DNA of 64,000 nucleotides, taken from assembly GCA_902385625.1 (NCBI GenBank), contig CABMGE010000014.1, positions 84 to 64,083 on the forward strand, in the 5' to 3' direction. The notes beneath the pieces are model-generated. The model saw nothing but the letters and a program-made list of their open reading frames with translations, was not told where the DNA came from and searched no databases. Of the stretch, positions 6,825-47,809 are shown in pieces (the first letter of the stretch is position 1; each line of letters opens with the position of its first letter). The DNA comes from an uncultured archaeon. Lineage in GTDB: Archaea > Nanobdellota > Nanobdellia > Pacearchaeales > GW2011-AR1. Made by a program: the position numbers and the translations under genes.

Positions 6825-6836
6825 AAGTTATTTGGC

Positions 6837-7863: not shown

Positions 7864-7893
7864 AACAATAATTATCTAAACAAATATATAACT

Positions 7894-8109
7894 TTATCTC
7901 TTATCTCTTATCTTTCCCCAGCCAATATGTTTCCATAATCTTTCATGAACAAAAAACAAAGGAATCTTAATTAAAGTGAAAATAGCACTGAATTGAACAG
8001 AAGTACTAAGATTTCCATAAACAATATAAACTGCAACAGTTACAAGTAAAAAACTAATAAACTCCCAAACCATTCCCTTCACAAAGCTTCTTTCATAAGT
8101 AGATCCCAT
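7894..8109 (-). CDS. Small membrane protein, DUF2061-like
   Basis: 71 aa with RSFVKGMVWEFISFLL...FFVHERLWKHIGWG, resembling the DUF2061 two-helix pattern. Confidence 0.5.
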   Translation of the reverse strand: MGSTYERSFVKGMVWEFISFLLVTVAVYIVYGNLSTSVQFSAIFTLIKIPLFFVHERLWKHIGWGKIRDKR

Positions 8110-8165
8110 ATAAATTACCTCTCTTATTAATTAACTAATAAAATCAATATATAAATATTATCTCC

Positions 8166-9029: not shown

Positions 9030-9091
9030 AAAATCATAAAGGAATTAGATTTTAATTAGTTTTTGTTCATAGAGAAATAAATATATATCAA

Positions 9092-9820: not shown

Positions 9821-9853
9821 ACTTAAACATTTAAATTAAAAAAATATAACTTT

Positions 9854-10300
9854 CTAATTGTCTTTTGAATCTTCTTCATCGTCGTCTTCGTCTTCTAAAT
9901 CTTCTTCTTCAGAATCATCTTCTATCTGAATCATTTCTAGAATTTCAATTATCTTATCAAGTTTTGCATTAAGTTGATTGAATTGTTGTCCAGATATTCC
10001 TGACTCTGCAGGTCTACTCTGACTTCTTGAGCCAAAATTACCGCCTGAACTTGAATTATCGCTTTTTCTAAAGCAATCACTGCAAAGAACAGGTTTATCT
10101 CCAGTAGGTCTAAAAGGAACTTGACATTCATTACCACATTTATCACAAGTAACATCATGCATTTGGGCAGGCCTTCTGCCACCAAATCCGCCTCTACCGC
10201 CAGAGCTGCCACCAAAGTCTCTTCCTCCAGATCTAGAATGAGATCTACCGCCAGATCTGCCACCAAATCCTCCACGACTGTCTGATCTAAAGTTTCCCAT
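9854..10300 (-). CDS. RGG-rich protein with a CxxC-x17-CxxC zinc-ribbon-like domain and an acidic tail
   Basis: 148 aa: GGFGGRSGGRS...repeats, CDKCGNECQVPFRPTGDKPVLCSDC (exact CxxC-x17-CxxC spacing), and a C-terminal EDDSEEEDLEDEDDDEED run. Confidence 0.6.
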   Translation of the reverse strand: MGNFRSDSRGGFGGRSGGRSHSRSGGRDFGGSSGGRGGFGGRRPAQMHDVTCDKCGNECQVPFRPTGDKPVLCSDCFRKSDNSSSGGNFGSRSQSRPAESGISGQQFNQLNAKLDKIIEILEMIQIEDDSEEEDLEDEDDDEEDSKDN

Positions 10301-10761: not shown

Positions 10762-10796
10762 AATTATTAAAAACTTAAGTTATTTATAAGATTTAT

Positions 10797-10867
10797 GGGC
10801 CTATTGTTCAGTGGTAGAATGCTCGGCTGGCAGTCGAGAGGCTCGAGTTCGATTCTCGATAGGTCCA
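10797..10867 (+). tRNA. tRNA-Ala (GGC)
   Basis: Hand-folded: acceptor GGGCCTA/TAGGTCC with the G3:U70 alanine identity pair, anticodon stem CTCGG/TCGAG, loop CTGGCAG, T arm TCGAG-TTCGATT-CTCGA. Confidence 0.9.
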
Positions 10868-11365: not shown

Positions 11366-11759
11366 AACCTCGAGCAAGTACTTTAACTTTCTCTTCAATC
11401 TCATCAACTCTTTTTCTAATTCCAGGAATATCTGTATCAATACAGTCAGTTATTTTCCACCAAATAATTTCTCCATTAAAGCTATTTTTAAAAAAAGCAG
11501 GATCAACATTATCTGCAACAATTACAAGTAAATCATAATTATTGATTTTACTCGAATCAACTCGTCTCGCAATCCTATCTTTAAGATCATAGCCTTTTTC
11601 CATTAAAACATTTACAACGCTTTCAGGAGTTGGGTGATCTGAGCCAATAAGCCCTGCACTTTCCGCAAGTATTTTTTTGTTTTTATTTAATTGATTAAAA
11701 ATACTCTCTGAAACCTTGCTTCGAAATTTATTATGCTTGCAAATAAAAAGTATTTTCAT
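11358..11759 (-). CDS. Low-molecular-weight phosphotyrosine phosphatase / ArsC-type family
   Basis: 133 aa with N-terminal MKILFICKHNKFRSKVSE, a CX5R(S) P-loop in the canonical position. Confidence 0.8.
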   Translation of the reverse strand: MKILFICKHNKFRSKVSESIFNQLNKNKKILAESAGLIGSDHPTPESVVNVLMEKGYDLKDRIARRVDSSKINNYDLLVIVADNVDPAFFKNSFNGEIIWWKITDCIDTDIPGIRKRVDEIEEKVKVLARGFN

Positions 11760-11760
11760 T

Positions 11761-11976
11761 TCAATTTCTCCAAAGTGTATTTACAAGATATTCATGTTGT
11801 GCTCTTTTTATTTCATAGGAACTAAAGGCATTGCACTGTAATAAAAAAGCTATTTCATGCTCTGCTCCAGAATCTAAAATATCGGAAAGACCATTGACTG
11901 TAATAGAATCAAGGTCTTCTCTTGCCCGATCTTCATAAAATTCCCTCAAAACCTCTGAAATATGGGAAACCACCAT
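11761..11976 (-). CDS. Small hypothetical protein
   Basis: 71-aa ORF ending in TGA 1 nt before the phosphatase ATG (TGAAATG). No family recognised. Confidence 0.35.
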   Translation of the reverse strand: MVVSHISEVLREFYEDRAREDLDSITVNGLSDILDSGAEHEIAFLLQCNAFSSYEIKRAQHEYLVNTLWRN

Positions 11977-12181
11977 GGATAATTCGAGGGATAGAACTAA
12001 TTAAATGTTTTGAATAAATAAGGTAGTAGAATAATATCAATTAATAATAACTTTTTTCATAAGGAGCACTCATTTTTATTCACCTCTCCTAATTTTGAGG
12101 GGGATGAAAAAAATAAGGCAATTATAATCAATTCAAAAAAATAAGAATTAAACGGAGTTTAAGGTAAAAAAATTTACAAAA

Positions 12182-13825
12182 TCAATGATAAAACATCTTG
12201 ACTTTATTCTTTATCTCTTTTTCCAGGGCAAGATTTTTGTTCTTGAATTCCTGTTCCTTGACTTTTATTGCCTGTTTTAACTTTTCTTCAAAATCTTTTT
12301 GAAGAGTAGATTTTATCTCTCCTGCTTTTTTCTTTAAAGCTTCTTCTTGCTCTGCCAAATGTCTTATCTCAAGCCTTTTTTGTTCTTCAAAAGACTTCTT
12401 ATCATTCTTTAATTTCTCTTCAGAAGATAATAACTTCTCTTTTAGATTTTTTTCATTCTCTTCTTGCTGCTTTAACAAATTTTTACATTGAATACGCAAT
12501 TGTTCTTCAAAAGACTTCTTATCATTCTTTAATTTCTCTTCTTTTAATAAAAGTTTTTTTCTTAATTTTTTTTCAGCCGATTCTTCCTGCTTTATGAATT
12601 TTTTTATTTCAGCACGCTCTTCTTTTTCAAATGATTTCTTTTGATTTGTAAGTTCCTCTTTTTTTGAAAGCAAACTTGCCCTTAAAAGATCAATCCTTGT
12701 TTTTTCCTTGCCTAAATCTTTTTCTTTCTCAAGGATATTATTTAATGATTCTTCCTTTTCTTTCTCAATTTGAGAAACTTGCTTTGTAATTCTTTCCTTT
12801 TCCCTAAGCACATCCTTTCTTTTTTTAAGATTTTCATTTAATTTTTCATTTATCTCTGAAGTCTGTGCGAGTTTTTCTTTAAGCTCCTTTTCTTCTTCCT
12901 TTTGTTTTTCACGAAGTCTTAAAACTTCCTTGGCTATTTCCGAATCAAATTTTTTATGAAGATTTGCTTTATGAGAAAGTAGCATTTCTTCAAAATGTTC
13001 CCTTTGGGCATTTTTTTCTTCAAGAACGTCTTTTTCAAAATGCTCCCGGAATGATTTTTCCTTTGAAACAAATTCAGCAGAGAGTTTCTTTTTAAGAATT
13101 GCAAGCTCTTTATCAGAGATTTCATCTTTCTTTGCGATCTCGGCCTTAATCAGGCTGTCAAATTTATCATGAACTTCTCGTTTAAGTTCAGTTTTCACCC
13201 TTTGACTGTATAAGTCATGAAACTGATTTTCAAGCTGGTTATATTTTTCATTAAAAAGTTCTTCCCTTCTTTTAAGGTCTTTATGAAGTTCTTTTTGAAT
13301 TTCAGCTTCTTTATTTTCAACTTCCTCAGAAAGTTTGGCTTTAATATCATTTAAGGAAACATTCATAACATCGTCAAATACTTTTCCAACCCCCATGTTT
13401 ACCTTTTTTAAAACTTCATCTTTTCTTTTTTTCTCACCTTCATGAATCTTAATTTTTTTTCTCATAGATTCAATTTCAAGTTTAAGATGAAGAACCTCTT
13501 TTGAAAGCGGAGCGAATTTCTTGCATTGTTCTGATTTCTTTTCAATTTCCTTCTCCAGACTTTTTATTTTTACATCAGGATTAGAATCCTTTCCAGAGCG
13601 AGTTTTGCTTTTTCCAGAAATCTTTTCCTTTAAAAGTTTGAGTTCATATTCTATTTGAGGAATTTCAGATACATGTTTGAGTTTAGAACGAATAGATGCA
13701 ACTTCAGAGGGAAATTTTTTGTCTGCTTTTAGCAAATCAACCTCTTTTTCAAGCTCCTCAAGTCTTTCAATACCTTTTGCATAAATCTCAAAATCTCTTC
13801 TTATAATTTTATCTGCCATTTTCAC
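12182..13825 (-). CDS. Lys/Glu-rich coiled-coil protein, cytoplasmic, with no signal peptide or TM segment
   Basis: 547 aa, almost entirely K/E/L heptad-like sequence. Contains an internal duplication and starts 35 nt downstream of the giant-gene stop on the same strand. Confidence 0.6.
   Translation of the reverse strand: MKMADKIIRRDFEIYAKGIERLEELEKEVDLLKADKKFPSEVASIRSKLKHVSEIPQIEYELKLLKEKISGKSKTRSGKDSNPDVKIKSLEKEIEKKSEQCKKFAPLSKEVLHLKLEIESMRKKIKIHEGEKKRKDEVLKKVNMGVGKVFDDVMNVSLNDIKAKLSEEVENKEAEIQKELHKDLKRREELFNEKYNQLENQFHDLYSQRVKTELKREVHDKFDSLIKAEIAKKDEISDKELAILKKKLSAEFVSKEKSFREHFEKDVLEEKNAQREHFEEMLLSHKANLHKKFDSEIAKEVLRLREKQKEEEKELKEKLAQTSEINEKLNENLKKRKDVLREKERITKQVSQIEKEKEESLNNILEKEKDLGKEKTRIDLLRASLLSKKEELTNQKKSFEKEERAEIKKFIKQEESAEKKLRKKLLLKEEKLKNDKKSFEEQLRIQCKNLLKQQEENEKNLKEKLLSSEEKLKNDKKSFEEQKRLEIRHLAEQEEALKKKAGEIKSTLQKDFEEKLKQAIKVKEQEFKNKNLALEKEIKNKVKMFYH
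12380..12541 (-). repeat. Intragenic 120-nt-period duplication in the coiled-coil gene
   Basis: The same ~42 nt (TTGTTCTTCAAAAGACTTCTTATCATTCTTTAATTTCTCTTC) starts at 12380 and at 12500. It encodes EEKLKNDKKSFEEQ twice. Confidence 0.85.
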
Positions 13826-13860
13826 CTCTCCTATTTAAAAAGTCATTCTTGTTTTTAAAT

Positions 13861-16800
13861 TTATCTTCTTTTAAGAGAATCAACATCATAGCCCTTTTTC
13901 CTCCATTCTTCAAGCTTGTCCTTTTGAACAGAACTGTTCTTTTCAAGAGAACTGACATCATAACCTTTTCTTCTCCATTCTTCAATCTTATCCTTATCTG
14001 GAATTTTGTTTCGCCCAAGCAAATCAACATCATAGCCCTTTTTCCTCCACAGATTTATCTTCTGGTGTGCATTTCTTGGAGATCTCGGAGCTCTTCTGGA
14101 TATTTTTTTAAGCGCATGTTCAAGATAATTTTTCCTTGCAGGAGCCCCGCCAGAATAATCCTTTTTCATTTTATTGTGCATTATAATGGAAATTCCAATA
14201 ATTGCTAAAGTAACCAGAATAATAAAGAATAAATAAGGCCCAACTACATATTTTACAAAAAACCTTATATTAAATATATAATCGCTTAAAAGAGGTAAAC
14301 TAATTATTCCAAAAAATCCAAGCGCAAATATGACTCCAACTGATACAACTAATAAGTAAAAGACAGCAAGGAAAATCCTATGAGTTAAAATCCATTCTTC
14401 CTCATACTCAAAAAAGTTCCTAATTTTCTTTTTCTCAAGTTTTATTACAATTATTAAAAGTAAAAATATTAATATTAAGAGTAAAGGTATTATATAAAAG
14501 AAAATATTATTCAAAGCCGAGAATACATTCCCATCCTTGTCAATTTCAATTTGCCTATGAGACTCTGCAGAATATTTTTCATAAGTTACAGAGACATAAA
14601 GTTCATATCTTCCAGGAGGTGTATCTTTTGCAATGAATAATTTAGCTTTCTCTGTTTTTTCCTCCATATTTCCAATAAATATAGTATCTTTCCCAGAAGT
14701 CACCCTTTGTCCGTCTTTTTCAAGCCAGAAATCAACAATAACATCATTGTTAATATTTGCCATTCCCTTCAAGAAATAAGTGAAGGTAATAAAATTTCCA
14801 GTACCTATTGTTGAACTTACATCAAGTATTTTTATATCAAAGAGTTTTACACATCTATATTCCCAACAGGACTTTCCATCAGTGCATTGGGAATTATCTG
14901 TGCATTCACGAGTATAACACTTATTTTTAAAGCAATATTCTGTATTTTTGCAGTCTTCATTTTTCAAGCATCCATGAATAGCATTATTCTCAATTGTTTT
15001 ATTTTTTATGCTACTTCCTCCACTACCTCCGCCTCCCAAAACTCCATTAGAATTTTGTACTTCATTATTTGAACTTGCAACAGTGCCCCTTATTGCAGAG
15101 TGCCTCAAATTTTCAACTCTTATAACAGAACCTTCATCAAAGCAACTTAAACTTCCCCTTATAATACCCAAATTATTGCCAATGCAATCAGAAAAATTAG
15201 TTTCATCACTTTCTGTACAACTATCGCTCATTTGCGAAATATCAGTTAAGTCTGAATCTTTTACACATAAGTCAACAAAATCATTATCATTAATGTAAAT
15301 AACCTTGCTATATCCCATTTGCAATTGATCGGATAAATTTACAATTAAAGAGTTGTCAGCTTCTTTAATAACTACTTTATTAAGATCTAATTTTGAAAGT
15401 GAAAAATTATGGGTAAAATTCATAATTTTTTTATCAGAATCAAAAAACGCGATTTCTTGAGTATCATTATAACTGCCATAAGTTGAATTGCCACTTATAG
15501 TAATATTAAGATTATTTACACCTTCTTTAACAACATTTGATTCTCTTCCATAAAGATTATCAATCCTGTCAGAAATATTATCTTCATCAAGATCAGTATA
15601 ATTTAATATTAAAGAATAATTCTCTCCAGCCATTTGATTTCCAACAGAGTCGAAAGCCATACAACTCCAGGTATAATTTCCTTTAGGAAGAGTTAAGGTC
15701 CAGCTAGAAAAGTTACTTTCTCCAGATATCTCCTTTGTTTCATTCAATATAAAACTATTATTGAGTCCATCGGTTATATATAAACTGATATTTTTAAGAT
15801 TCTTATTTTCCATTACTGAACAATTAAAGGTCACATTTGAAATAATTGAAGAGTCATCTGAAAAATTATTAGATGGAAAGTCAAGATTTACAAAAGGAGG
15901 CATTACATCTACAGAAAATCTAACTAAACTATTATTGACATTGCCTGAAGAATCATTTGCATAAACGGTAACATTATGCTGTCCAATTATCCACATTACC
16001 TCTGAAATATTCTTGCAATTTTCAAGAATATTGCCTGTTGAATATCCTTCATCATCATACCAGCAAGAATCAAGATTTATATCTGAAACAGTATAACTAA
16101 CAATTAAAGTACCATTATTTGATTCTAGATTATTTTCAGGAGAAGTTATAGATATTAGAGGAGGAGTTATATCTTTTGTAACTGTTCTGTTTTCTGTGAC
16201 AAATGAATTTCCAGCAAAATCAAATAAATTATAAAACCATTTGTAAACTCCATCAACAAGAGTTACGACAATTCCAACAGTTGTAGTAATAGTCCCAGGA
16301 GAATAATTTACAGTTGTTCTATTGATAAGATCATTTGATGAATTAAAAACATTAAGTGTTGCATTTTTAATTCCTGATTCAGTATCTCCATATTCAGGAG
16401 TAATATCGCTCAGGTTTGCAGTAAAATTTATAGAATTATTTAAATAAGAATTATTTTCAGGTGCAAGGAGAGTTGCATTAGGATTAACTACATCAGTATT
16501 GTTTATAGTATAATACTGATTAGGAGATAAACTTTGTAAACAACTTGTCCCATTGCTATATGCCGTCCAATTATAAATAAATGTATTATTGGCAGAGAAA
16601 GTATAATTTGCACTATAAACGTTTGGACTTACACTTCTGGCATAAATAGATGCTCCATTTATATTTAGAATTACAGTCCCATTAGTATTATTGGCAGTAA
16701 TATTAAAGAATGCAACTCCACTTCCAATCAGAGATGCATTATTTGATGAAAAATTAAAGAATTGTGGGTGACTTGTATCAACGTTAAATATAACACTTGT

Positions 16801-18591
16801 TTGGTTTAAATTACCTGCAGAATCATTTGCATAAGCAATATAATTATAAGTTCCATCTAAAAGCATAAAATCAGTTGAATAATCATAACTCAAATTATTG
16901 CTTCCATTATACCACCATAAAGAAGAAACTTCACTAGTATTTGCGAGTTCAACACTAACAATTGAAGTGTTATATGAAATGTTTAATGGATAAATAAAAC
17001 TAATTCCCGGAGGTGTTCGATCCACTATGAATGTAATATTTCCCTGTGTTGACCAATCATTAGCCCCAAGTGTATTATTACACCAAATATTCCATTGGTA
17101 AGTTCCATCATTTAAATCTTTTGTAAAATAATTAGCTGAATAATTTGCAACATTAGTGGTTGAATTATTTTTACTCCAGACTCCTGCAAAATTACCCCAT
17201 AATTCACAAGTTGAAATTCCATCACTTGCCATTGGAGTGTAGTTGAACTGAACAGTTGAATTTCTATAATACCTGTCTGCAGCAGGAGAATTAAGGCTTA
17301 TTTGAGGTGGAACTGTTTTTATTCCAAAAAGAACTGTCTTTACAGCTAAATTATTAAGAGAATCATTACAATAATAATTAATTGAATATGTTTTGTCAGG
17401 CAAGATCAAAGTATAATTAAAACTTCTATTGAAATTATTTTGCATTGTATAATTATTTGTAGAATTAAGTGCAATCCAACAATAAGAATCTTCATTTGTA
17501 GTTATATTAAAAAATATTATACTTGTAGTATAAGTTTTCTCTTCAGGAATATTAACACTAATAAGTGGAGAAGTTGAATCAATAAAGAAAGTTACATTTG
17601 TTGAATTCAAGTTTCCAACAGAATCATTTGCATAAGCATAAATTATGTTTGTCCCTTCATTAAACAATTTAATAATAGTAATTAAATAGGTTTCATTCCC
17701 AAGTCCACGATTAAACCACAAGTTCTTTCCATCTGAATTAGTTAAAAGATTTATAGATAGATTTCTAGTGCTATAAGATTTATTTATCGGAGAGTTAAAT
17801 GAAATATGTGGAGGAATTGTATCAATTCCAAAGATCCTATATGTGGAATTCAGATTTCCAAAACTATCATTACAGGAAAAAATAATTGTATGACTTCCAT
17901 CAGATAAACCTGAATTTGTAAAGTTAAAATAAGTATTATTTGTTGAAGAAATTGTTATATTTGGATAAAAGTCTAAACTATATCCACACCAGCTAGCATT
18001 TTTGTTTGTGTTAAATGAAAAATTAATTGAATTTATCCTATAAGTAAAATTTAAAGGGGACAAAATGCTAATTGAAGGAGGAATAATATCTCCAACACTT
18101 ACATTATAATTTCTTGGTGCTGAATTATTTAGATTAGTTAAATTTCCATTTCCATAAGCATACCAGGAATAAGTATAATTCTTACTTGAAGTAAAGTTAT
18201 AACTTACATTGTAAACATTTGCAGAAGTATTTGTTGCAATAATATTGGTATTATTAATAACAAACCAAACAGTTCCATTTGTATTGGCCACAGTTGTATT
18301 GAAATATCCTCTTCCAAGTCCTGCCTGTACTCCATTGTTATCGTAATAATTTGAAAAGATTGGATAAATGCTATCTGGAAGTGTTCCATTAATTATTGTA
18401 ACGTTCCAAGAGTTAGTTATATTATTAATACTTCCTTCAGAAGTTTTATTTGCATAAACAAAAAATGTATAATAGTTAAAGTTTCCAGTTGCATCAACTA
18501 ACCAGGTTATTATTTTTGATTCTCCTAAATTCAGAGTGAGATTATATGGATTTGTGGTAGTAGTATAAAATGGAGTTGCACTTGAGTTCAT
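13861..18591 (-). CDS. C-terminal 1576 codons of the giant surface protein: Ig-like modules, Cys-rich stalk, multi-pass membrane anchor, cytosolic repeat tail
   Basis: Same frame as ORF 18736-30228, with no stop between 18592 and 18735. Starts inside a repeated domain (MNSSATPFYTTTTNPYNLTLN) and has no signal peptide. Hydrophobic helices lie near 14180-14500. Confidence 0.8.
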   Translation of the reverse strand: MNSSATPFYTTTTNPYNLTLNLGESKIITWLVDATGNFNYYTFFVYANKTSEGSINNITNSWNVTIINGTLPDSIYPIFSNYYDNNGVQAGLGRGYFNTTVANTNGTVWFVINNTNIIATNTSANVYNVSYNFTSSKNYTYSWYAYGNGNLTNLNNSAPRNYNVSVGDIIPPSISILSPLNFTYRINSINFSFNTNKNASWCGYSLDFYPNITISSTNNTYFNFTNSGLSDGSHTIIFSCNDSFGNLNSTYRIFGIDTIPPHISFNSPINKSYSTRNLSINLLTNSDGKNLWFNRGLGNETYLITIIKLFNEGTNIIYAYANDSVGNLNSTNVTFFIDSTSPLISVNIPEEKTYTTSIIFFNITTNEDSYCWIALNSTNNYTMQNNFNRSFNYTLILPDKTYSINYYCNDSLNNLAVKTVLFGIKTVPPQISLNSPAADRYYRNSTVQFNYTPMASDGISTCELWGNFAGVWSKNNSTTNVANYSANYFTKDLNDGTYQWNIWCNNTLGANDWSTQGNITFIVDRTPPGISFIYPLNISYNTSIVSVELANTSEVSSLWWYNGSNNLSYDYSTDFMLLDGTYNYIAYANDSAGNLNQTSVIFNVDTSHPQFFNFSSNNASLIGSGVAFFNITANNTNGTVILNINGASIYARSVSPNVYSANYTFSANNTFIYNWTAYSNGTSCLQSLSPNQYYTINNTDVVNPNATLLAPENNSYLNNSINFTANLSDITPEYGDTESGIKNATLNVFNSSNDLINRTTVNYSPGTITTTVGIVVTLVDGVYKWFYNLFDFAGNSFVTENRTVTKDITPPLISITSPENNLESNNGTLIVSYTVSDINLDSCWYDDEGYSTGNILENCKNISEVMWIIGQHNVTVYANDSSGNVNNSLVRFSVDVMPPFVNLDFPSNNFSDDSSIISNVTFNCSVMENKNLKNISLYITDGLNNSFILNETKEISGESNFSSWTLTLPKGNYTWSCMAFDSVGNQMAGENYSLILNYTDLDEDNISDRIDNLYGRESNVVKEGVNNLNITISGNSTYGSYNDTQEIAFFDSDKKIMNFTHNFSLSKLDLNKVVIKEADNSLIVNLSDQLQMGYSKVIYINDNDFVDLCVKDSDLTDISQMSDSCTESDETNFSDCIGNNLGIIRGSLSCFDEGSVIRVENLRHSAIRGTVASSNNEVQNSNGVLGGGGSGGSSIKNKTIENNAIHGCLKNEDCKNTEYCFKNKCYTRECTDNSQCTDGKSCWEYRCVKLFDIKILDVSSTIGTGNFITFTYFLKGMANINNDVIVDFWLEKDGQRVTSGKDTIFIGNMEEKTEKAKLFIAKDTPPGRYELYVSVTYEKYSAESHRQIEIDKDGNVFSALNNIFFYIIPLLLILIFLLLIIVIKLEKKKIRNFFEYEEEWILTHRIFLAVFYLLVVSVGVIFALGFFGIISLPLLSDYIFNIRFFVKYVVGPYLFFIILVTLAIIGISIIMHNKMKKDYSGGAPARKNYLEHALKKISRRAPRSPRNAHQKINLWRKKGYDVDLLGRNKIPDKDKIEEWRRKGYDVSSLEKNSSVQKDKLEEWRKKGYDVDSLKRR
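13864..14058 (-). repeat. Three tandem 72-nt (24-aa) repeats encoding (E)EWR(K/R)KGYDV...
   Basis: ATCAACATCATAGCCC at 13879 and 14023, and ACTGACATCATAACC at 13951. Protein: INLWRKKGYDVDLLGRNKIPDKDK / IEEWRRKGYDVSSLEKNSSVQKDK / LEEWRKKGYDVDSLKRR. Confidence 0.9.
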
Positions 18592-18619
18592 TGAAACTGC
18601 TCCGTTTTTTATACTTCCT

Positions 18620-19460
18620 AAAAATGTTATTGTTACATATCCAGGCCCTTTGTTTATTCCGGCACTATTATTCTGATCGATTCCTGAATTATAAGAGCCT
18701 CCTCCGCCCCCATAACCAGAGTCATAAGATCCTCCTCAACCAGAGTATCCTCCGCCTCCGCCTGCTCCTGCACATCCTGTTCCACCTCCGCCCCCAAATC
18801 CCCCTAAAGGAACAAATTCACATGAACCTTCTCCACCAAGACCTCCATTTAAAAAAGATTTTGCAACTTCTGTTGCATCAATAGTTCCACAATCTGTTAT
18901 TCCTCCGTCACTAAAAAATCCAGCACCCTGTCCTGCACAACTTTTAGAACCAGAGTATCCGCAAACACCTGATCCATACCCATTAATCCCTCCAGGACAT
19001 CCAGTCTGACTAGTTCCTCCTGAAGAATTTATAAGTGCATTTGCAAAAATACTGCTTCCTGTATAAGACATTCCCCCGCCGCCACCTGCAATAACTAAGA
19101 TAGATGAATTATCATTATATGGAGACCTGACAACAAAACTTCCACCTCCACCTCCTCCGCCATAATAACCAGTGCCAGAAGGCATCTGTCCAACTAATAT
19201 TTTAATAACTTCTCCCCGATTTAAAGAAAAAGTTCCTTTCATTCTAGATCCATTACCACTTGGATTGAGATTCTTATCTGTTCCAGCAGCACCAAATGCT
19301 TCAATGGTATAAAGTCCTGTTGCAGGAACAGTAAAGTTTTGCGTCCCATTTCCAACTGCAACAAGGCCTTGTAATGTTGTTCCATTATAAAAAAGAGTAC
19401 AATTATTCTGAGTCGGCCCTAAATATCCTGTTGCATTGCAGGTTGTAAAATTATAGATAA
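18620..19460 (-). other. ALK/LTK-like TNF-like + glycine-rich domain, copy 4 (contains the in-frame TGA)
   Basis: IYNFTTCNATGYLGPTQNNC...NGTQNFTVPATGLYTIEAFGAAGTD...ILVGQM...GGGGGGSFVV...LVIAGGGGG...GGFGGGGGTGCAGAGGGGGYSG*GGSY... Confidence 0.7.
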
Positions 19461-22400
19461 TAAAAGGATCAAGTGTAACATTTATCTCTCCACAATTCGC
19501 CCTTGAGCAACTAACATTTACGCTAACATTAAAAAAATTATTTTGAGGAGCGTTTAGATTTGTCAAAGGATAAATTAATTCTAAACCTATTTTTGGAATT
19601 TTTTTAGTAAAAGTGACGCTTGTAAAATTTAAATTTCCAGAAGAATCATTACAATATACAAAAATAGTATTACCATTTTCTATTGTAGATACATTAACAA
19701 AATTAATTCCAGATACAACTATTGAAGAATTCCAAAGTCCTGATGAATTAGAATACCAGCAAGAAGCATTCCCATTATAATCATAATAAGTGTAATTAAT
19801 AGAATTTACTTCAGAGTTATAAGTAATATTTAATGGATAAATTATATTAATTGCAGGAGGAATAATATCTTTAATTGTTACATTTAATTTTGACGTTTGA
19901 TTTCCAATACTCAAGTTTGTTGTAGCATTTGCATAAACATAAAATTCAAATGGATTATTTGGAGTTCCAGTTGCATTAACAAACCAGGCAATAATTATTG
20001 ATTCATTTATATTTAAGGTTAAATTATATGGATTTGTTACATTTGTGTAAAAAGGAGTTTCATTTAAATTCATTGAAACAACTCCCCCTTTTCCACTTGC
20101 ATAAGTAATTAATACATACCCTTGCCCAGTATTTATTCCAGCAGTATTATTTTGATTAATGCCCGAGTTATAAGAACCTCCGCCGCCTCCATAACCTTGT
20201 GCATAAGATCCTCCGCCACCAGAGTATCCTCCGCCTCCGCCTGCACCATAACATCCAACTCCGCCGCCTCCACCAAATCCTCCTAAAGGAATAAATTCAC
20301 AAGAACCTTCTCCACCTGAGCCTCCATTTAAAAAAGATTTTGCAACTTCTGTTGCATCAATAGTTCCACAATCTGTTATTCCCCCATTAGTAAAAAATCC
20401 TGCCCCTTGTCCTGCACAGCTTTTTTGCCCAGAATATCCACAAATACCAGAACCATTCCCACTAGCTCCACCAAGGCAACCAGTCTGACTTGCTCCGCCT
20501 GAATAACCTGCTAGTCCATTTGCATTTACATTATTTCCAGTGTTATATGTTGTTCCCCCGCCACCACCTGCAATAACTAAAATAGATGAATTATCATTAT
20601 ATGGAGACCTGACAACAAAAGTGCCTCCGCCTCCAGCACCGCCATAACTGCTAGATCCATTAGCCATCTGTCCTGCGAGAATTTTAATAACTTCTCCTTT
20701 TGTCAAAGTAAATGTTCCCTTCATTTTTGCTCCATAACCGCATGGATTATGATTAACATCAGTTCCTGCAGCACCTGCTGCTTCGATGATATAAGATCCA
20801 GTTGCAGGAACAGTAAAGTTTTGCGTTCCATTTGAAACTGTTACAATTCCTGCAAGAGATGTCCCCAAATAAGCTAAATTACACTCAGTTTGATTAGGTC
20901 CAATATTTCCCATTTTATTGCAAGTTGTAAAATTATAAACAATAACAGCAGGGTCAAGAGTTACATTTATCTGCCCGCAATTTGAAACACTGCAGCTAAT
21001 GTTAACACTAATATTAAAGAAAATATTCTGAGTCGTGTTTATGTTTGTTGCAGGACTAATCCAATCAAGATTAATTCTTGAAAAAGTTTCAGAAATAATG
21101 GAATTAACTGTTATATTTCTTTTTTCAGTAGAATTAAAGTTTCCATATGCATCTGTTGCAAATGCTTGATAAGTATAATTTCCAGGACTAAGTCCTGTAG
21201 TTGAATTCTTTGATTGATTCAAATATAAATACCATTGCATTGAATTAAATTTCTGTAGATTGCTTGCATATAATTCATAAATCTCTGCAGAACTAAGAGA
21301 CCTGTTCCATATCATAAAATTATCTAAATAACCTGCAAATCTTCCCGCAGTTCCACTGTTTATATCCCCAAGTCTAAATGTTGTCCACGCAAAATTAGAT
21401 GTACCAACTGCCGAACCAGCAGTCTGTTTTACTCCATTCTTAGTCCAATTTATTATTCTATTTGTTCCATCATGTGAATACTGAAAGCAAAGATGTGTCC
21501 ATACTCCAGGAGTTAATCCCATAGATACTTTCGGAGACTGATCCCACCACTCAATGTCCCCTGAATTATAATTTCTTACTACATCAGCTATACCTGGAGC
21601 TGAATCAAATATTCCGCTAGGATTTGCTGAATTAGAATTAACCCAGAAACATATTGTGAATGGAAGTGTTGGTTTAGGCACATTTGTTATTACATAATCA
21701 TCAACTCCATCAAATCCAATTGCATTACCAAATCTTCCAATTGAATAATTGCATCCTGAAATCATATTTGAGCAATTCACAGTAATATTATATTTTGAAA
21801 TGTCTGTTATTTTATTTAAAGCGCTACCTTCACCCAACCCGGAAATATTATCAAAATTCATCATTAAGATCAAAGAATTATCATAAAGACTAAAATTCGT
21901 TCCATTCCAATTATAAATTAATGAATTAAGATTTTGTTCACTAATTGAAACATTAATTATAACAGAAGTATTTGTGGTATTAAAATAATTTATAGGGGTT
22001 GGATCTGAAAAATTAATCCGTGGAGGAATTGTATCAACAGTTAAGGTATGATTTTGAGTTGTGAAACTGTTTCCAGAATTATCAATTATTTTATAGAACC
22101 ACTTATACACTCCATCAACAAGAGTAACAACGATTCCAACAGTAGAAGTTAATGTTCCTTGAGGATAACTTATTGTAGTCTGATTAACAAGACTAGTTTG
22201 ATTCCAAATATTAAGAGTCGCATTTTTAATCCCAAGATTATCAGTTATATTTGCAGTGAAATTATAACTGAAATTACTTGAAATAGTATTGTTTTGGGGA
22301 ACAACTAAAGTTGCATTAGGAAGAGTTGTATCTGAAATAAATGTGACACTACTCGAGTTTACATTGCCTGCTAAATCTTTTATATAAATTCTCCAATTAT

Positions 22401-25400
22401 TTGTGCCTTCTAAACCAGAAATTCCTGTAATATTATTACAGTCAATTAATGAAGAATTAGTTATTCCATTATTAAGAGAGTACCAACAACCATAAACATT
22501 CGCTTCATTGTAACTATAATTAATTGTATAAACTATTGAATTATAATTTGTATTCGCAGGATAAGTTATTGAAATCTGAGGATATACCCGATCAACAATT
22601 AATGAGCGTGAAGTACCAAGAACAAGATTATTCGAATTGTTATCATAACATTCTACATTCCATGAATGAGTTCCTTCTCCAAGAGGTATGATTATAGAAT
22701 AAACAGCCCCACTATTTGGAGAATTAATAGTTGTATTCTCTTCTCCATCCAGTATAAGCGTACAATTTGTCGCAGTACCATTATAATATACAAAAGAAAA
22801 ATTAACGTTATTGTAGTTTAATATGCTTTGATCCACAGGGTTTAGAAGATTAACTGAAAATACAGGAAGATTTCCAAAGACTTGGAAATTAGTTATACTT
22901 GTAGAATTAATATTTCCAGCATTGTCTCTTATAAAAAATCTATAACCATAACTTCCTGTTGTTACGGTTTTTGTTACTGCAATTGAAGCAGAATTTCCAG
23001 AAATAGAAACTTCTGAATCATTAAGCCACGTTCCTGAAATATTTGATGAAAAGATATATCCCCCTAATAAATAATTATCATAAACATTAACAAGGAAACT
23101 TATCTGCTGATTATTATATACAGGGCTGCTGTCAGAAATGGAATTAAATGTAGGGGGATCATTATCGAATTTTACAAAAAATCTATCCGAGGTCCTCAAA
23201 TTATTTGGCAGGGTATTATCCCGAATATATACAGGAACACTTTTTTGCCCTGTATTTGAGTTAACTAGGACAGAAATATTCCAAAATGACCATTGTGCAG
23301 TACTTTTATTCCCCGAAGAAAAAATCATGGTGGTATTTGTAGAACTATTTAATAAACTTAAGTCAACAACAGAATTATTTATTCCTGAACTTACTCCATC
23401 ATCAGATGCATCTGAAGCATTAATTCCAAGGATTATATTCTGTCCGTTTCTAATATAATACTGACCTGCAGGGTAAATAACGGTCAAATCTTTTGAATAA
23501 GGAATACTTCTATCAATATAATAATGAACAGAGTCAGTTGCATTATTTCCTGAAGTATCATATGCAATTGCTCTAAAGTCATAACCTTCTGAAGCATTTG
23601 AAAACAATCTTGTCTGCCAAAGACAGCTATAAACTCCATTTGTGCCTGAATCAACAATGCTAACATTGCAAAGTGTGATGTAATTCATGCTTGAATTTTT
23701 ATACTGGAATAAAACATTGCGAATTCCATTATTATCTGTTGAAAACTCTTGGATTGTAAGATTCCCGTTGACAAAACTATTATTTGCAGGATTTATTATT
23801 AATACACTTGGAGGATTAAAATCTCCCTTGGCAAGTGGCAAGTAATCAGTATTCTTATTTTTGATAGTATATCCAAGATCGCATATCCCATCTGAATTTG
23901 AATCAATGCAGATATCTGAAAAATCACTTGAAGTTGGATTTGTCCAATAGTTTCCACCCATATTTGTTCCATTGATTATGTTTACTAAAGAAATTTTTGT
24001 TATATTCCAATAATTTTCATCAGATGCATCAAGCCGTAAATTAAGAGAATTATTAAGGTAATTATTATAAATCCAGTTTGAGGAGGATTTCCCCTTGACA
24101 GCCATTCCATATTGTTTGCTTCCAGTTATTCTATTGCCTGAAAAATTTGTATTACTCGAAGTGTCAAGATAATATGCAATTGAATTGTTTGTAAAATTAT
24201 TATTTATAGATGAAATATTATTACTGTTAAGGATATATAGTCCATACTCGGAATTATTATTAACTAAACTATTTGTGACTTTTCCTTTTTTTGAAGAATA
24301 AAAATAAATTCCATTATAAAAATTAGTGATAATACAATTTTGTATAGTTAGATTATCTTTTCCATTTATTTCTATCCCAATATCCCCGGGACTTCCATCA
24401 CCAATTAGAATTGAATTATTGCAATCAACAACTATATTATTTGCAAGTATTCTTAGCATATCCTGAGTGGTATTATAATTTCCATAACATAATGTAATAT
24501 TTTGAGCTACATTATAAAATCCAGAGCCTTGTGTAATTTTATTTTGATAAGTAGTTGGATCTGAAAGATTTATACAATTTGATGAAGAGGTATTTGAATT
24601 AGTTGAATTTAAGATTGTAACATTCCAAAAAGAGGTTATGTTACTGATAGTCAAATCTGTTGTTAAATTTGCATAAACAAAAAATGTATAAGTATTTGGA
24701 CTTCCTGTTGAATTAACAAACCAGGTTATCACCTGTGACTGCCCCTGGTTTAAGGTAATATTATACGGATTTGTTGTATTTGTATAAAATGGAGTTGCAC
24801 TAGAATTCATTGAAACAATTCCATCTTTAACAGATCCTGAGAAAGTTATTGTAACATAACCTGCGGATAAAATTGTATTTAGACTATTATTTTGACTTGT
24901 TCCATTGTTAAATGATCCCCCTGCTCCAGCAACTCCACTGCTGTCTGTTCCAGCTCCTCCCGAATATCCGCCTCCAGCACCACTTGCCCCCATATTACAC
25001 CATTCTCCTCCGCTGCCTCCACCAAATCCTCCTGCTCCTCCACTACCACAACTCCCTCCTGCTCCTCCACTACCATTTGTAATAAAAGCATTTCCTCTTC
25101 CAGAAGATGCACTAACAGTTCCATTTCCATAAAATCCTCCTCCCCCAGAGGATCCACTTCCTGCCCCTCCTCCATTTCCATTTATTCCTCCTGTATAAAC
25201 TCCCATTGAACCATTTAGTCCAGAAGTATTTAGAGATGCATTTTGTCCACTTCTCGGATTAGAATTTCCGCCGCCACCTCCACCTCCACCTGCTACAATT
25301 AAAGGAGTATTTTCTGATAATGCAACAAAACTTCCACCTCCACCTCCACCTGCACTATTTGCACTTGTTGTTCCTACCTGTCCCACAATAATTTTAAGTA

Positions 25401-28400
25401 TTTGTCCAGCAGTTAAACTAAATGTTCCAACCATTCGTGCACCCCTTCCTCCCGGATAAGAGGTAGTAGAACCATTTCCTCCAGAAGCTCCAACTGTTTC
25501 AATTATATAAGTTCCAGTAAATGGAACTGTCCAATATTGTGTTCCATTAATAACAGTTACTCCTGTTGCAAGGATTGTACTTGAATAACTCAAATTGCAA
25601 ACACTCTGATTTGGTCCAAACGGTCCCGTAGTATTGCAAGTTGTAAAATTATAAACCGTGGAGGTAGGATCAAGAGTTACATTTATCTGCCCGCAATTTC
25701 CAATTAAACAACTCACATTTACACTCACATTAAAAAATTGATTTTGACTTACATTAATATTATTTAATGGATAAATAATACTGAGTCCTATTCTTGGAAT
25801 CATTTTTGAAAAATTAATTGTTACAGAATTTAAATTTCCAGAACTATCATTGCAATAAACAGTCCATAAATTATTTCCATCACTACTATTAACATTTGTA
25901 AAATTAATTCCAGCATTAAGTATCGAAGAATTCCAAAGTCCAGAAGAATTAGAATACCAACAACTGCCCCCGGAGTTATAATCATAATAAGTATAGTTAA
26001 TTGAATTAACATTATAACTATAAGTAATATTTAATGGATAAGTTATATTAATTATTGGGGAGATAATATCTTTGATTGTTACATTAATTCTTGAAGTCTG
26101 ATTTCCAATACTTGAATTTGTTGTAGCATTTGCATAAACGTAAAATTCAAATGGAATGTTTGGTGTTCCAGTTGCATTAACAAACCAGGTAATAATTCTT
26201 GATTCTCCATTATTTAAAGTCAAATTATACGGATTAGTTGTATTTGTATAAAATGGAGTTACACTTGAATTCATTGAAACTGTTCCTCCTTTGACTGATC
26301 CTGAAAAACTAATTAAAACATATGCGGCACCATAATTACCGGGCATAGAATTATTCTGATTTGTTCCATTATTAACTGATCCTCCTCCACCTCCTCCTGA
26401 ATAAGGTTCACCTCCACCAAATCCTCCTGCTCCACCACCAAATCCTCCTCCTGCTCCTCCTGCATAAGCAACTGCACCACCTCCACCAAATCCTCCATCA
26501 GACGGATAATTTGTATAATTTATTCCACCAAATCCTCCAGAAATAAAAGATGTTCCCATCAAGGTATTTGCACCATTTCCATTGCCAACAGAACCATTTG
26601 TCAAAAGTCCAGCGCCTCCTCCTCCAGGCCAAGTTCCAGTACCGGTTGTTCCTCCGGATCCATTGCATCCAGGAGTACCACTTCCATCATTAGCTGTTGT
26701 TCCGCAAACAGTAAGAGAAGCATTTTTTCCATTTTGCAAACTTCTTCCTCCAACTCCACCGCCTCCGCCTGCAATAACTAAAGGATCATTATTTGACCTG
26801 ACAACAAAAGTTCCTCCGCCACCGCCTCCGCCCCCATCACTCGTTTTATTTCCACCATCCTGTCCAACAAGGATTTTAATAACTTCTCCTTTTTGTAAAA
26901 CAAAGTCTCCAGATAATACTGCTCCTCTTCCAGGACTTTTATCTAAATTCTGAAAAGTATTATTTCCTCCATTAGCACCACGAACCTCTATTCTATAGGT
27001 TCCTGTTGCAGGAACAGTCCAGTTCTGAATTCCATTATTAACAAAAACTTGTCCTTCAAGAGAAGTTCCAAGATAAATAGAATTACATTGAGATTGATTC
27101 GGCCCAAGTCTACCGGTTTTTCCGCAAGTTGTGAAATTATAAAGAGTCAAAGAAGTTGGATCAAGTGTAACATTTACTTGCCCGCAATTTGAATTGAAGC
27201 AACTTATATTAATACCAAAATTAAAAAAATTATTCTGGGTTACATTGATATTTGTTGTCGGAGAAACTAAATCTAAATTAATCTGAGGGGTATTTTCATT
27301 AATTGTAATAGTTCTTTGTTCAGTCAGGTTAAAATTTCCACTATTATCTTTTGCAAAAGCCTGATAAGTATAAGTCCCGTCAGAAAGTCCAGTAGTTGCA
27401 TTTTGTGACTGATTTACATAAAGATACCATTGTGTAAAGTTAAACTTGTTTAGGTTAGAAACATACTGTTCATAGATTTCAGCAGCAGACAGGCTTCTGT
27501 TCCAAACTCTTACTTCGTCAATAGAACCATTAAAATAATCCGAGCAACAACCACCTAAATTGTTGTTTCTCGCACCAACAGTCATACTTTCATTAGGATA
27601 AAATTTAAAGGCAGATTCACTTGTTTGATTCATTAATATTCCATTTAGATAAATTTTTACAACACTGGCATTTCCCACAATAGTTCCATAATACCACTGA
27701 TTTGCTAAAACAGTCCCGACTCCACTGCATGGGCCATCATTTGTAGCACAAAGACCATTACTTGTTACATAAATATATCCTTCATATCCAGAGTTATGTC
27801 TGTCTTTACCTAAAATTGCATTCCAATTACCTTCGATTAGTTTAGGATAAAACCAGAAAGATATTGTTTTTGTCTGATTTCCATCCCCAAAATCAATCGA
27901 ATTGTCACTGCTTAGATTAATATAACTTACACTTGAACGATTAAACCAATATGCTCCTCCATATTTTCCAGATGAGTTCCACTTTGCACCATAAACAGTT
28001 CCATTATTTCCATATTTACTTACATCAACAACATAAGTTGAATTTTCTCCAAGTGAAGTTAAATTATCAAAATTCACCATCAAAACCAATGAACCATCAT
28101 AAATCGTATAATTTGTCGAGTTCCAATTATAAGTAATATTGGCAGGATTCTGTTCAGATATTGTAAAATTTAGCTGGATAGAATTGTTTGAAGAAATTGT
28201 TCCATTTGCAGGGGTTGGTGATGTAAAATTGATTTGAGGAGGAATCATGTCAAGGCCTGAGTTAATAATTATAGTTCTTTTCTCAGTTGAGTTAGAATTT
28301 CCAGAGTTATCAGTTGCAGATGCCTGATAAGTATAAGTCCCGTCAGAAAGTCCAGTAGTTGCATTTTGTGACTGATTTACATAAAGATACCATTGTGTTG

Positions 28401-47622: not shown

Positions 47623-47809
47623 TTTTTCTCCTCTTTTACCTATCACTAAAATAATAAAACACCATATATAAAGATTATCAAACAAGAACACAAGTCAGGA
47701 TATTTTCCCTAAAATTGCATATCCTACCAATTCAAGTATTTCCCTAAGTTTATGTATAGAATTAATACTTAGAGTAGGAGGAATACTTGAGATCCCCATT
47801 AGAAAAATA

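What the first reader, a model, noticed from the sequence alone, without database searches (positions are those of the whole stretch)
18592..18738. One in-frame TGA splits what is otherwise a single ~5,455-codon (16.4 kb) surface-protein gene
- **Same frame:** ORF 18736-30228 (3830 aa) ends at a TGA at 18738-18736, and ORF 13861-18591 (1576 aa) starts 144 nt (48 codons) further on in the same frame.
- **The gap still reads as protein:** I translated the 48 intervening codons by hand. They are stop-free and read GGSYDSGYGGGGGSYNSGIDQNNSAGINKGPGYVTITFLGSIKNGAVS. This continues glycine-rich domain copy 4 and aligns with copy 3 (GGSYAQGYGGGGGSYNSGINQNNTAGINTGQGYVLITYASGKGGVVS).
- **The stop replaces a glycine:** At the aligned position copy 3 has GGC (...GGGGGYSG-G-GGSY...), where copy 4 has TGA.
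- **The downstream ORF does not look independent:** It begins mid-domain, has no signal peptide, and carries the only membrane anchor.
- **Possible explanations:** a recent nonsense mutation, a strain-variable or consensus error in a highly repetitive region, an on/off switch, or stop-codon readthrough.
Basis: seen in the sequence. Interest (0 to 1): 0.75.

Follow-up and report, generated by a model that had tools for sequence, protein, structure and literature searches.

The report
Nonsense-interrupted giant archaeal surface-protein gene
A 16.4-kb gene for a giant cell-surface protein of a tiny uncultured (DPANN/Woesearchaeota-like) archaeon is cut in two by one TGA stop that replaces an invariant glycine; it looks like a young one-base lesion (a real mutation or a consensus error), not a new way of reading the genetic code.

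Summary
Window 13861-30228 (- strand) is one frame of 5,455 codons with a single internal stop, TGA at 18738-18736.

**What the stop interrupts**
- It lies inside the fourth copy of an ALK/LTK-type TNF-like/glycine-rich (TG) domain.
- It replaces a glycine that is invariant in 32 homologues.
- It cuts off the last two beta-strands of the fold.
- The downstream 'start' ATG is a methionine conserved in all four copies.

**One gene, not two**
- Orthologues in two related archaeal contigs (54-57% identity over more than 1,300 aa) carry the same C-terminal part inside one uninterrupted giant ORF.
- A third orthologue is broken elsewhere, by a 1-nt deletion.

**No sign of recoding**
- TGA is an ordinary terminator in this genome. 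Four other genes end in TGA, each followed by 0-17 junk codons.
- It is 1 TGA against 612 glycine codons in the gene.
- There is no SECIS element, no suppressor tRNA in the window, and no RNA structure specific to the stop site.

**Verdict**
The best reading is a recent GGA->TGA substitution. No second lesion has appeared in the 1,624 downstream codons, which bounds neutral divergence since the event at about 1.2%. Without reads I cannot say whether it is a true allele or a consensus error. The finding is ordinary and of low interest.

The parts
13861..30228 (-). The whole reading frame of the giant surface-protein gene: 5,455 codons plus the terminal TAA, with one internal TGA.
   Evidence: Translation has stops only at codon 3831 and at the end. 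Pfam finds 4 x Laminin_G_3, ALK_LTK_GRD and Big_13. There are 313 N-x-S/T sequons at equal density before and after the stop.
18736..18738 (-). The in-frame TGA, at codon 3831. It replaces an invariant Gly of the GGGGGYSG-G-GGSY motif.
   Evidence: The equivalent Gly (position 251 of copy 3) is invariant in 32 aligned TG domains. It aligns with ALK 'GGGGGYIGG'.
18739..30228 (-). Upstream ORF of 3,830 aa. It has an N-terminal signal peptide or anchor, 4 LamG domains, TG-domain copies 1-3 and most of copy 4.
30139..30228 (-). N-terminal hydrophobic signal peptide or anchor (aa 1-30, MKSKLIPFLILAFVILSIILIYAIPQ...).
   Evidence: Hydropathy scan. An A/T-rich TATA-like box 'acttaaaata' lies about 27 nt upstream of the ATG, as at other genes in the window.
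18592..18735 (-). The 48 'linker' codons between the TGA and the annotated downstream ATG. They encode the C-terminal part of TG-domain copy 4, including its last two beta-strands.
   Evidence: Translation. Gap-free alignment to copy 3. In the copy-3 model the strands at 270-279 and 284-290 lie after the stop-equivalent position 251.
18586..19482 (-). TG (TNF-like + glycine-rich, ALK/LTK-type) domain copy 4 (aa 3583-3881), interrupted by the TGA.
   Evidence: PDB ALK/LTK chains, E 7e-12.
20068..20967 (-). TG domain copy 3 (aa 3088-3387). It is the intact closest paralogue (71% aa identity to copy 4) and has GGC at 20215-20217 where copy 4 has TGA.
   Evidence: AlphaFold model pLDDT 89.6, pTM 0.90. 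Foldseek to ALK/LTK TG domains gives E 1e-16 to 3e-17 and TM 0.64-0.75.
24805..25683 (-). TG domain copy 2 (aa 1516-1808).
   Evidence: Pfam ALK_LTK_GRD best stretch 1571-1809. Alignment.
26269..27174 (-). TG domain copy 1 (aa 1019-1320).
13861..18591 (-). Downstream ORF as annotated in the public record (1,576 aa, VVB78203.1). Its ATG is the Met of the VSMN motif present in all four module copies.
   Evidence: P0121 is 100% identical, 'Uncharacterised protein [uncultured archaeon]', contig 70,031 nt. VSMN is conserved at aa 1317, 1805, 3384 and 3878. There is no properly spaced TATA-like box or strong SD before it.
14167..14526 (-). Three C-terminal transmembrane helices (aa 5235-5354). This is the only membrane anchor apart from the N-terminal signal.
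   Evidence: Hydropathy scan. Conserved in orthologues L001 and L002.
13864..14076 (-). Cytoplasmic tail with three copies of a ..EW[RK][RK]KGYDV.. repeat.
   Evidence: Seen in the translation. The same repeats occur in L001 and L002.

Best explanation
This is one ancestral gene for a giant, heavily N-glycosylated surface protein of about 5,455 aa. The protein has a signal peptide, then LamG, TG (ALK/LTK-type) and Ig-like modules, then three TM helices and a cytoplasmic tail. The host is a DPANN (Woesearchaeota-like) archaeon.

The gene carries a young, one-off nonsense substitution. A glycine codon, most simply GGA (the commonest Gly codon in the gene), became TGA by a single G->T change.

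**Shown:** the single-gene ancestry, the position of the stop inside a domain, the normal terminator role of TGA in this genome, and the lack of any other decay.

**Inferred:**
- The base is a true allele of the sequenced population rather than a consensus error.
- Ribosomes stop at the TGA. The cell would then make a 3,830-aa secreted fragment that lacks its membrane anchor and ends in an incomplete TG domain.
- The downstream 1,624 codons are not translated beyond background readthrough, so the gene is a nascent pseudogene or truncated allele.
For: **One frame, still coding**
- 5,455 codons with one internal stop.
- The downstream part keeps in-frame codon usage and has no stops, against 84-231 in the other frames.

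**The stop sits inside a fold**
- It occupies a Gly present in the three in-gene paralogues and invariant in 32 homologues.
- It lies in the GGGGGY[SI]GG motif of the ALK/LTK glycine-rich domain.
- It is at position ~251 of a ~300-residue fold modelled at pLDDT 89.6, ahead of two core strands.
- That model matches ALK/LTK TG domains at TM 0.64-0.75.

**Simple mutational path**
- GGA makes up 377 of the 612 Gly codons, so one transversion is enough.

**The downstream ORF is not independent**
- Its ATG is the conserved Met of VSMN in all four modules.
- It has no signal peptide.
- It has no properly placed promoter or SD, whereas other genes carry cTTATAAA at about -30.

**Orthologues**
- L001 (Ca. 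Woesearchaeota MAG): 57% identity over 1,335 aa.
- L002: 54% over 1,637 aa, reaching the very C-terminus.
- Both hold this part inside one continuous ORF of at least 3,900 and at least 4,929 aa.

**TGA is a terminator here**
- Four other genes end in TGA, followed by only 0-17 codons before the next stop.
- Giant ORFs in relatives (L013, L024, L038) also end in TGA.

**The lesion is not conserved**
- None of the 79 related loci has a comparable in-frame stop.
- The one other broken orthologue, L080, has a different lesion at a different place: a 1-nt deletion in a T-run.

**The lesion is young**
- 4.9% of possible point substitutions in the downstream part would create a stop. Having none implies fewer than about 60 substitutions (about 1.2% divergence) since the event, at 95%.
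Against: - No reads are available, so a consensus or strain-mixing error cannot be excluded. If it is an error, the gene is simply intact.
- The complete absence of secondary lesions in 4.9 kb also fits a downstream part that is still translated and under selection.
- Only 64 kb of the genome is visible, so a suppressor tRNA elsewhere cannot be ruled out.
- No same-species sequence exists in the searched collections to show the allele state in other samples.
Confidence: 0.55

Rival explanations
1. Sequencing, consensus or strain-mixing artefact. The organism's gene is intact, with a Gly codon at this position. The T at 18738 would be an assembly or polishing error, or a minor allele that entered the consensus.
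For: - Nothing else is wrong with the gene. There is no second stop or frameshift in 16.4 kb, and it is collinear with orthologues to the last residue.
- The lesion is a single base.
- The source is an uncultured-archaeon metagenome contig.
- A related assembly (L080) has a homopolymer-length frameshift, typical of assembly error, in its orthologue. So lesions in these giant genes do occur in such assemblies.
Against: - Substitution errors in a consensus are rare.
- A chimeric join of the paralogous copies cannot create TGA, because copy 3 has GGC there and no copy has TGA.
- Local repeats are short (longest exact run 62 nt) and the copies differ by 7-30%, so collapse is unlikely.
Confidence: 0.3
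2. Functional stop-codon readthrough or local recoding. A fraction of ribosomes would decode this UGA through a near-cognate or suppressor tRNA (Gly, Trp, Cys or Arg). That would give both a shed 3,830-aa form and a membrane-anchored 5,455-aa form.
For: - The downstream 1,624 codons are perfectly intact.
- UGA is generally the leakiest stop codon (background knowledge).
- The stop stands at a Gly position, as in genetic code 25.
Against: - TGA terminates four other genes in the window and giant ORFs in relatives.
- It is 1 TGA against 612 Gly codons in the gene.
- None of the 7 tRNAs in the window has anticodon UCA.
- No SECIS or other Rfam element is found at E<=5.
- The RNA after the stop folds no better than the stop-free paralogue: -38.2 kcal/mol for both, z -2.3 against -2.0.
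- The stop is not conserved in any orthologue or related locus.
- In archaea only Sec and Pyl stop-codon recoding have been demonstrated (PMC8211752). UGA=Gly is known only in two bacterial lineages (PMC8629427).
Confidence: 0.06
3. Reversible on/off state of a variable surface antigen. The stop would be created or repaired by gene conversion between the paralogous TG-domain copies.
For: - Copies 3 and 4 show mosaic identity. A tract of 85-93% identity, including a 62-nt exact run, ends next to the stop; the surrounding sequence is about 70% identical. This suggests past intragenic conversion.
- Surface proteins of host-dependent cells are typical targets of variation (background knowledge).
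Against: - There is no simple-sequence repeat, homopolymer or inverted repeat at the site.
- A point substitution is not a recognised high-frequency switch.
- No population data are available.
Confidence: 0.04
4. Two genuine, separately expressed genes: a secreted 3,830-aa protein and a 1,576-aa membrane protein, as annotated in the public record.
For: - The depositors annotated the 1,576-aa ORF as a separate protein (VVB78203.1).
- A weak GGAG lies 8 nt before the ATG at 18591.
Against: - The boundary falls inside a single protein fold.
- The 48 codons between the stop and the ATG still encode that fold.
- The ATG is a conserved internal Met, and the GGAG comes from Gly codons that are also present in the other copies.
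- The downstream product would have about 1,350 extracellular-type, sequon-rich residues and no signal peptide.
- Orthologues have one ORF.
Confidence: 0.03

Closest known systems
Nonsense-disrupted genes (nascent pseudogenes), and split ORFs of long genes in metagenome-assembled genomes
   Same: - A single in-frame stop sits where homologues have a sense codon, and it is reachable by one base change.
- The annotation pipeline calls two ORFs, the second from the next internal ATG.
- A related assembly (L080) shows the same kind of accident in its orthologue, in the form of a frameshift.
   Different: No further decay is visible in 4.9 kb downstream. The lesion is therefore either very young (under about 1.2% neutral divergence) or not real.
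Giant LamG/Ig-rich surface proteins of DPANN archaea (for example the nanohaloarchaeal giant 'SPEARE' proteins; PMC10266531)
   Same: - Size of thousands of residues.
- N-terminal Sec-type signal, LamG and Ig-like modules, and a membrane anchor.
- Found in a small-genome DPANN archaeon.
- Presumed role in attachment to a host cell (presumed from the literature, not tested here).
   Different: - This protein carries four ALK/LTK-type TG domains.
- It has no VirB4-like ATPase region.
- It is anchored by three C-terminal TM helices followed by a repeat-bearing cytoplasmic tail.
- It has no detectable sequence relation to SPEARE beyond the shared domain types.
ALK/LTK TNF-like + glycine-rich (TG) domain, Pfam PF12810 (PDB 7LRZ, 7NX1, 7N00 and others)
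   Same: - Pfam hit of 48.7 bits against a cut-off of 24.5.
- PDB sequence hits at E ~1e-11, including the GGGGGY[IS]GG motif.
- The model of copy 3 superposes on ALK/LTK TG domains at TM 0.64-0.75 over the whole domain.
   Different: Here the domain is a repeated module in an archaeal surface protein rather than the ligand-binding region of an animal receptor kinase. Prokaryotic members of PF12810 are already numerous in databases.
Genetic code 25 (UGA = Gly) of Gracilibacteria and Absconditabacteria
   Same: A UGA stands at a conserved glycine position in a low-GC genome of a small-celled uncultured organism.
   Different: - It is a single instance (1 against 612 Gly codons).
- UGA is used as a terminator in the same window.
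- The organism is an archaeon (TFB, Alba, EndA, S3Ae).
- Relatives show nothing similar.

Membership tests
Nonsense-disrupted gene / nascent pseudogene | An in-frame stop at a position where paralogues and homologues have a sense codon. | tested here: met
   Gly in 3 paralogous copies and invariant in 32 homologues.
Nonsense-disrupted gene / nascent pseudogene | Orthologues encode the two halves as one ORF. | tested here: met
   L001 and L002 have continuous ORFs of at least 3,900 and at least 4,929 aa covering the downstream part at 54-57% identity.
Nonsense-disrupted gene / nascent pseudogene | The stop allele is real and fixed in the population. | not testable with these tools
   No reads are available. 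No same-species sequence was found: 0 hits for the exact DNA pattern, and the 90% protein cluster has one member.
Nonsense-disrupted gene / nascent pseudogene | Secondary decay (further stops or frameshifts) downstream. | tested here: not met
   There are 0 further stops in 1,624 codons and the sequence is collinear to the C-terminus of L002. This bounds the age at under about 1.2% divergence.
Genetic code 25 (UGA=Gly) | UGA is not used as a terminator. | tested here: not met
   Four genes end in TGA, followed by 0-17 codons of junk. Giant ORFs in relatives also end in TGA.
Genetic code 25 (UGA=Gly) | Many in-frame UGA codons at Gly positions across genes. | tested here: not met
   One TGA against 612 Gly codons in this gene. 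No other long ORF in the window is split by TGA. No such split in 79 related loci.
Genetic code 25 (UGA=Gly) | A tRNA-Gly with anticodon UCA. | tested here: inconclusive
   None among the 7 tRNAs of the window, but only 64 kb of the genome is visible.
Selenoprotein gene (UGA=Sec) | A SECIS element. | tested here: not met
   Rfam scans find tRNAs only at the gathering thresholds. Nothing relevant appears at E<=5 over 13000-19500.
Selenoprotein gene (UGA=Sec) | The UGA aligns with Cys or Sec in homologues. | tested here: not met
   It aligns with an invariant Gly.
Programmed stop-codon readthrough | The stop and its context are conserved in orthologues. | tested here: not met
   No orthologue or related locus has a stop there.
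Programmed stop-codon readthrough | A stimulatory RNA structure or context specific to the site. | tested here: not met
   The MFE is -38.2 kcal/mol (z -2.3) after the stop. The stop-free paralogue gives -38.2 kcal/mol (z -2.0).
Programmed stop-codon readthrough | An extended protein product is detected. | not testable with these tools
   This needs proteomics or ribosome profiling of the source community.
Phase-variable contingency gene | A simple-sequence tract, or an invertible or shufflable element, at the switch site. | tested here: not met
   The site reads GGT TGA GGA GGA, with no homopolymer or repeat tract.
ALK/LTK TG domain (PF12810) | Profile match above the curated cut-off, plus the fold. 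| tested here: met
   48.7 bits against a cut-off of 24.5. PDB sequence hits at E 7e-12. Model pLDDT 89.6, Foldseek E 3e-17, TM up to 0.75.
Giant DPANN surface protein | Archaeal DPANN host, signal peptide, LamG/Ig modules and a membrane anchor. | tested here: met
   Archaeal markers TFB, Alba, EndA and S3Ae. Best relatives are labelled Woesearchaeota, Pacearchaeota or Nanoarchaeota. Domains; hydropathy.

The most novel reading that the evidence does not exclude
The UGA is real, fixed and partly read through, by a near-cognate or dedicated tRNA. One gene would then yield a shed 3,830-aa adhesin and a membrane-anchored 5,455-aa form. This would be the first non-Sec, non-Pyl stop-codon readthrough documented in an archaeon. 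It would also explain why 1,624 downstream codons show no decay.
Probability: 0.05. Interest if true: 0.7.

Novelty: already known. Interest (0 to 1): 0.18.

Why it matters
The practical value is for annotation. The two database ORFs, one of them VVB78203.1, should be treated as one interrupted gene. The 1,576-aa 'protein' starting at an internal Met is an artefact of ORF calling.

If the stop is a true allele, this DPANN population carries a truncated, unanchored form of its largest surface protein. That could bear on host attachment, but it is an ordinary loss-of-function event.

Only if the stop proved to be read through would it matter for archaeal translation, where no such case is established. 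Nothing found here points that way.

Tried and rejected
- **Genome-wide UGA=Gly (code 25) or UGA=Trp: rejected.** TGA terminates four other genes cleanly, and the host is an archaeon.
- **Selenocysteine: rejected.** The aligned residue is an invariant Gly and there is no SECIS.
- **A spliced element (BHB intron or intein) containing the stop: rejected.** The alignment to paralogue copy 3 has no gaps for 351 nt around the stop. Removing any segment would delete conserved residues.
- **A termination-reinitiation or out-of-frame restart at the GGAGGA-TCTT-ATG just after the stop: rejected.** That ATG is out of frame, opens only a short ORF, and the same sequence exists in stop-free copy 3.
- **A second split giant gene at 45751/45758: rejected.** The downstream gene has its own ATG (45749) and signal peptide right after the upstream TAA.
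- **A misassembly chimera of the repeats as the source of the TGA: rejected.** No copy contains TGA.

**Dead ends**
- Exact-protein look-ups for four window proteins found no contig.
- The strain-level DNA pattern found nothing in metagenome contigs.
- The source genome is not in genome contigs.
- The tRNA scan of 60 related loci was uninformative, with one tRNA-Met only.
- The giant-gene preprint and the Haloquadratum halomucin paper contain no precedent for stop-interrupted giant genes.

Full report
**1. The observation**

The - strand at 18760-18700 reads ...GGC GGA GGA TAC TCT GGT TGA GGA GGA TCT TAT GAC..., which places TGA at 18738-18736. The ORF listing returns 18736..30228 (3,830 aa) and 13861..18591 (1,576 aa) in the same frame. 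Translating 13861-30228 gives 5,455 codons with a single internal stop at codon 3831.

This is far beyond chance:
- The 1,624 codons after the TGA contain no stop, while the other five frames of the same DNA contain 84-231.
- Downstream codon usage matches the upstream part with cosine 0.958, against about 0.52 out of frame.

**2. The gene and its host**

The window is archaeal. It encodes tRNA-intron endonuclease, Alba, TFB and ribosomal protein S3Ae, and its GC content is about 31%. The closest relatives of the big protein are labelled Woesearchaeota, Pacearchaeota or Nanoarchaeota, that is DPANN. The public record is an 'uncultured archaeon' contig of 70,031 nt, in which the downstream ORF is annotated as a separate 1,576-aa protein, VVB78203.1.

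The protein has these features:
- An N-terminal hydrophobic signal (aa 1-30).
- Four Laminin_G_3 domains and Big_13/Ig-like modules.
- Four copies of an ALK/LTK-type glycine-rich domain (Pfam PF12810, 48.7 bits against a cut-off of 24.5).
- 313 N-x-S/T sequons, at equal density on both sides of the stop.
- Three TM helices, found only at aa 5235-5354.

Giant LamG-rich anchored surface proteins are a known feature of DPANN archaea and are thought to mediate host attachment (PMC10266531).

**3. Where the stop sits**

The four glycine-rich modules align well, and copies 3 and 4 are 71% identical. All three other copies have Gly where copy 4 has the stop. Homologues from other organisms read GGGGGYSGGGGSY at this point. 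In an alignment of 32 such domains the equivalent glycine, position 251 of copy 3, is invariant.

Sequence search of the PDB hits the ALK and LTK glycine-rich domain structures (E 7e-12), and the stop falls in the ALK motif GGGGGYIGG. An AlphaFold model of the intact copy 3 is confident (pLDDT 89.6, pTM 0.90). It places two long beta-strands, 270-279 and 284-290, after the stop-equivalent residue. The model matches ALK/LTK TG domains over its whole length (Foldseek E 3e-17, TM 0.64-0.75).

The stop therefore lies inside one fold. The 48 'linker' codons encode the end of that fold.

**4. The downstream ORF is not an independent gene**

- Its ATG is the Met of a VSMN motif present after every one of the four modules.
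- It has no signal peptide, although it encodes about 1,350 sequon-rich, extracellular-type residues.
- Genes in this window typically carry cTTATAAA about 30 nt before the ATG, which suggests leaderless transcripts. The ATG at 18591 has only a mis-spaced A/T run and a GGAG, and both arise from the coding sequence.

**5. Orthologues**

- **L001** (Ca. Woesearchaeota MAG contig) aligns at 57% identity over 1,335 residues with window aa 3857-5173. This lies within a single frame that runs off the contig end and is broken only by a run of N.
- **L002** (JGI metagenome contig) has one open frame of at least 4,929 aa. Its last 1,623 residues align with window aa 3841-5454 at 54%, right up to the TM helices and tail repeats.
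- **L080**, a third orthologue, is annotated as two genes, but there the break is a 1-nt deletion in a T-run inside a different domain.
- Across all 79 related loci, no other long ORF is split by an in-frame stop inside a domain. Every same-frame neighbour pair was an ordinary gene boundary.

The ancestral state is therefore one gene, and the window's stop is specific to its lineage. Lesions in this gene family occur at scattered places and are of different kinds.

**6. Recoding is not supported**

- Four other genes in the window end in TGA, and each is followed by only 0-17 codons before another stop. Giant ORFs in relatives also end in TGA.
- The gene has 612 Gly codons (GGA 377) and one TGA.
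- None of the seven tRNAs in the window has anticodon UCA.
- Rfam finds only tRNAs at the gathering thresholds, and nothing relevant at E<=5 around the site.
- The RNA downstream of the stop folds no better than the equivalent stretch of the stop-free copy 3: -38.2 kcal/mol in both, z -2.3 against -2.0.
- In the literature, UGA=Gly is confined to Gracilibacteria and Absconditabacteria (PMC8629427). Demonstrated archaeal stop-codon recoding is limited to Sec and Pyl (PMC8211752).

**7. Real mutation or error?**

- GGA->TGA needs one G->T change.
- Copies 3 and 4 are 70-93% identical at DNA level, with a longest exact run of 62 nt. Neither carries TGA, so a repeat-induced chimera cannot have produced it.
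- 4.9% of possible point substitutions in the downstream part would create a stop. The absence of a second one means fewer than about 60 substitutions (about 1.2% divergence) have accumulated since the event (95% bound). The lesion is either very recent or not real.
- No same-species sequence exists in the collections. The exact-pattern scan gave 0 hits, the protein cluster has a single member, and the exact look-ups were empty. The allele state therefore cannot be checked here.

**8. Verdict**

- About 0.55: a real, recent nonsense allele. It would give a truncated, unanchored 3,830-aa product.
- About 0.30: a consensus or strain-mixing error.
- Together about 0.15: readthrough, a conversion-based switch, or two true genes.

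The finding is a correct and careful observation of an ordinary event. Its main value is to correct the annotation. The module architecture of the protein, recorded under 'noticed in passing', is more unusual than the stop codon.

Noticed in passing
window 13864-14076 (-); L001 ~11700-12028; L002 ~14560-14788: The cytoplasmic tail after the three C-terminal TM helices carries three copies of a ~20-aa repeat, ..K[IL]xEW[RK][RK]KGYDV..L. The repeat is conserved in both orthologues (ADWKKKGYDV, DEWRRKGYDV). It may be a docking motif; its function is unknown.
   Followed up: no
window 18586-19600 (-) compared with L001 ~6700-7200 and L002 ~9400-9900: There is a module swap inside a conserved scaffold. 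The frame N.NVTQN.FFNVSVNVSC..NCG.INVTLDP-[insert]-G.VSMNSSATPFYTNTTNPYNLTLN holds an ALK/LTK TG domain in the window (four times). At the orthologous position L001 and L002 carry a different insert that is not glycine-rich. This suggests cassette-like exchange of binding domains.
   Followed up: partly
L080 ~9960-9990: The orthologous giant gene in ENA contig k141_1103250 is split into two called genes (3,453+ aa and 2,179 aa). The cause is a 1-nt deletion in a T-run: AATTTTCTCTAA where AATTTTTCTCTA would restore ...ATNFSLNTYNVS.... It is either an assembly error or a second independent disruption.
   Followed up: partly
window 18740-18975 and 20219-20454 (-): TG-domain copies 3 and 4 have mosaic DNA identity. 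A tract of 85-93% identity, including a 62-nt exact run at 18903-18842, lies in a background of about 70% and ends next to the TGA. This is suggestive of intragenic gene conversion.
   Followed up: partly
window 6837-9820: AMMECR1 (6837-7376 -), a radical-SAM enzyme (8166-9029 -) and a Memo-like protein (9092-9820 +) are clustered. This is the AmmeMemoRadiSam trio.
   Followed up: no
window 39627-47691 (-) and 50989-57707 (-): Four more large ORFs (2,040, 646, 1,141 and 889 aa) have no significant Pfam match above the curated cut-offs. The 2,040-aa one begins with a signal-peptide-like sequence. They may be further surface proteins specific to this lineage.
   Followed up: partly
window, upstream of most ATG starts (for example 10762-10800, 59315-59352): A cTTATAAA box sits about 30 nt upstream of many start codons and SD motifs are few. 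This suggests mostly leaderless transcripts in this archaeon.
   Followed up: no
Homologous-protein output: No listed hit is longer than about 2,800 aa, and the giant ORFs of L001 and L002 did not appear. Very long orthologues seem to be invisible to that protein search and had to be found through DNA-level locus scans.
   Followed up: no
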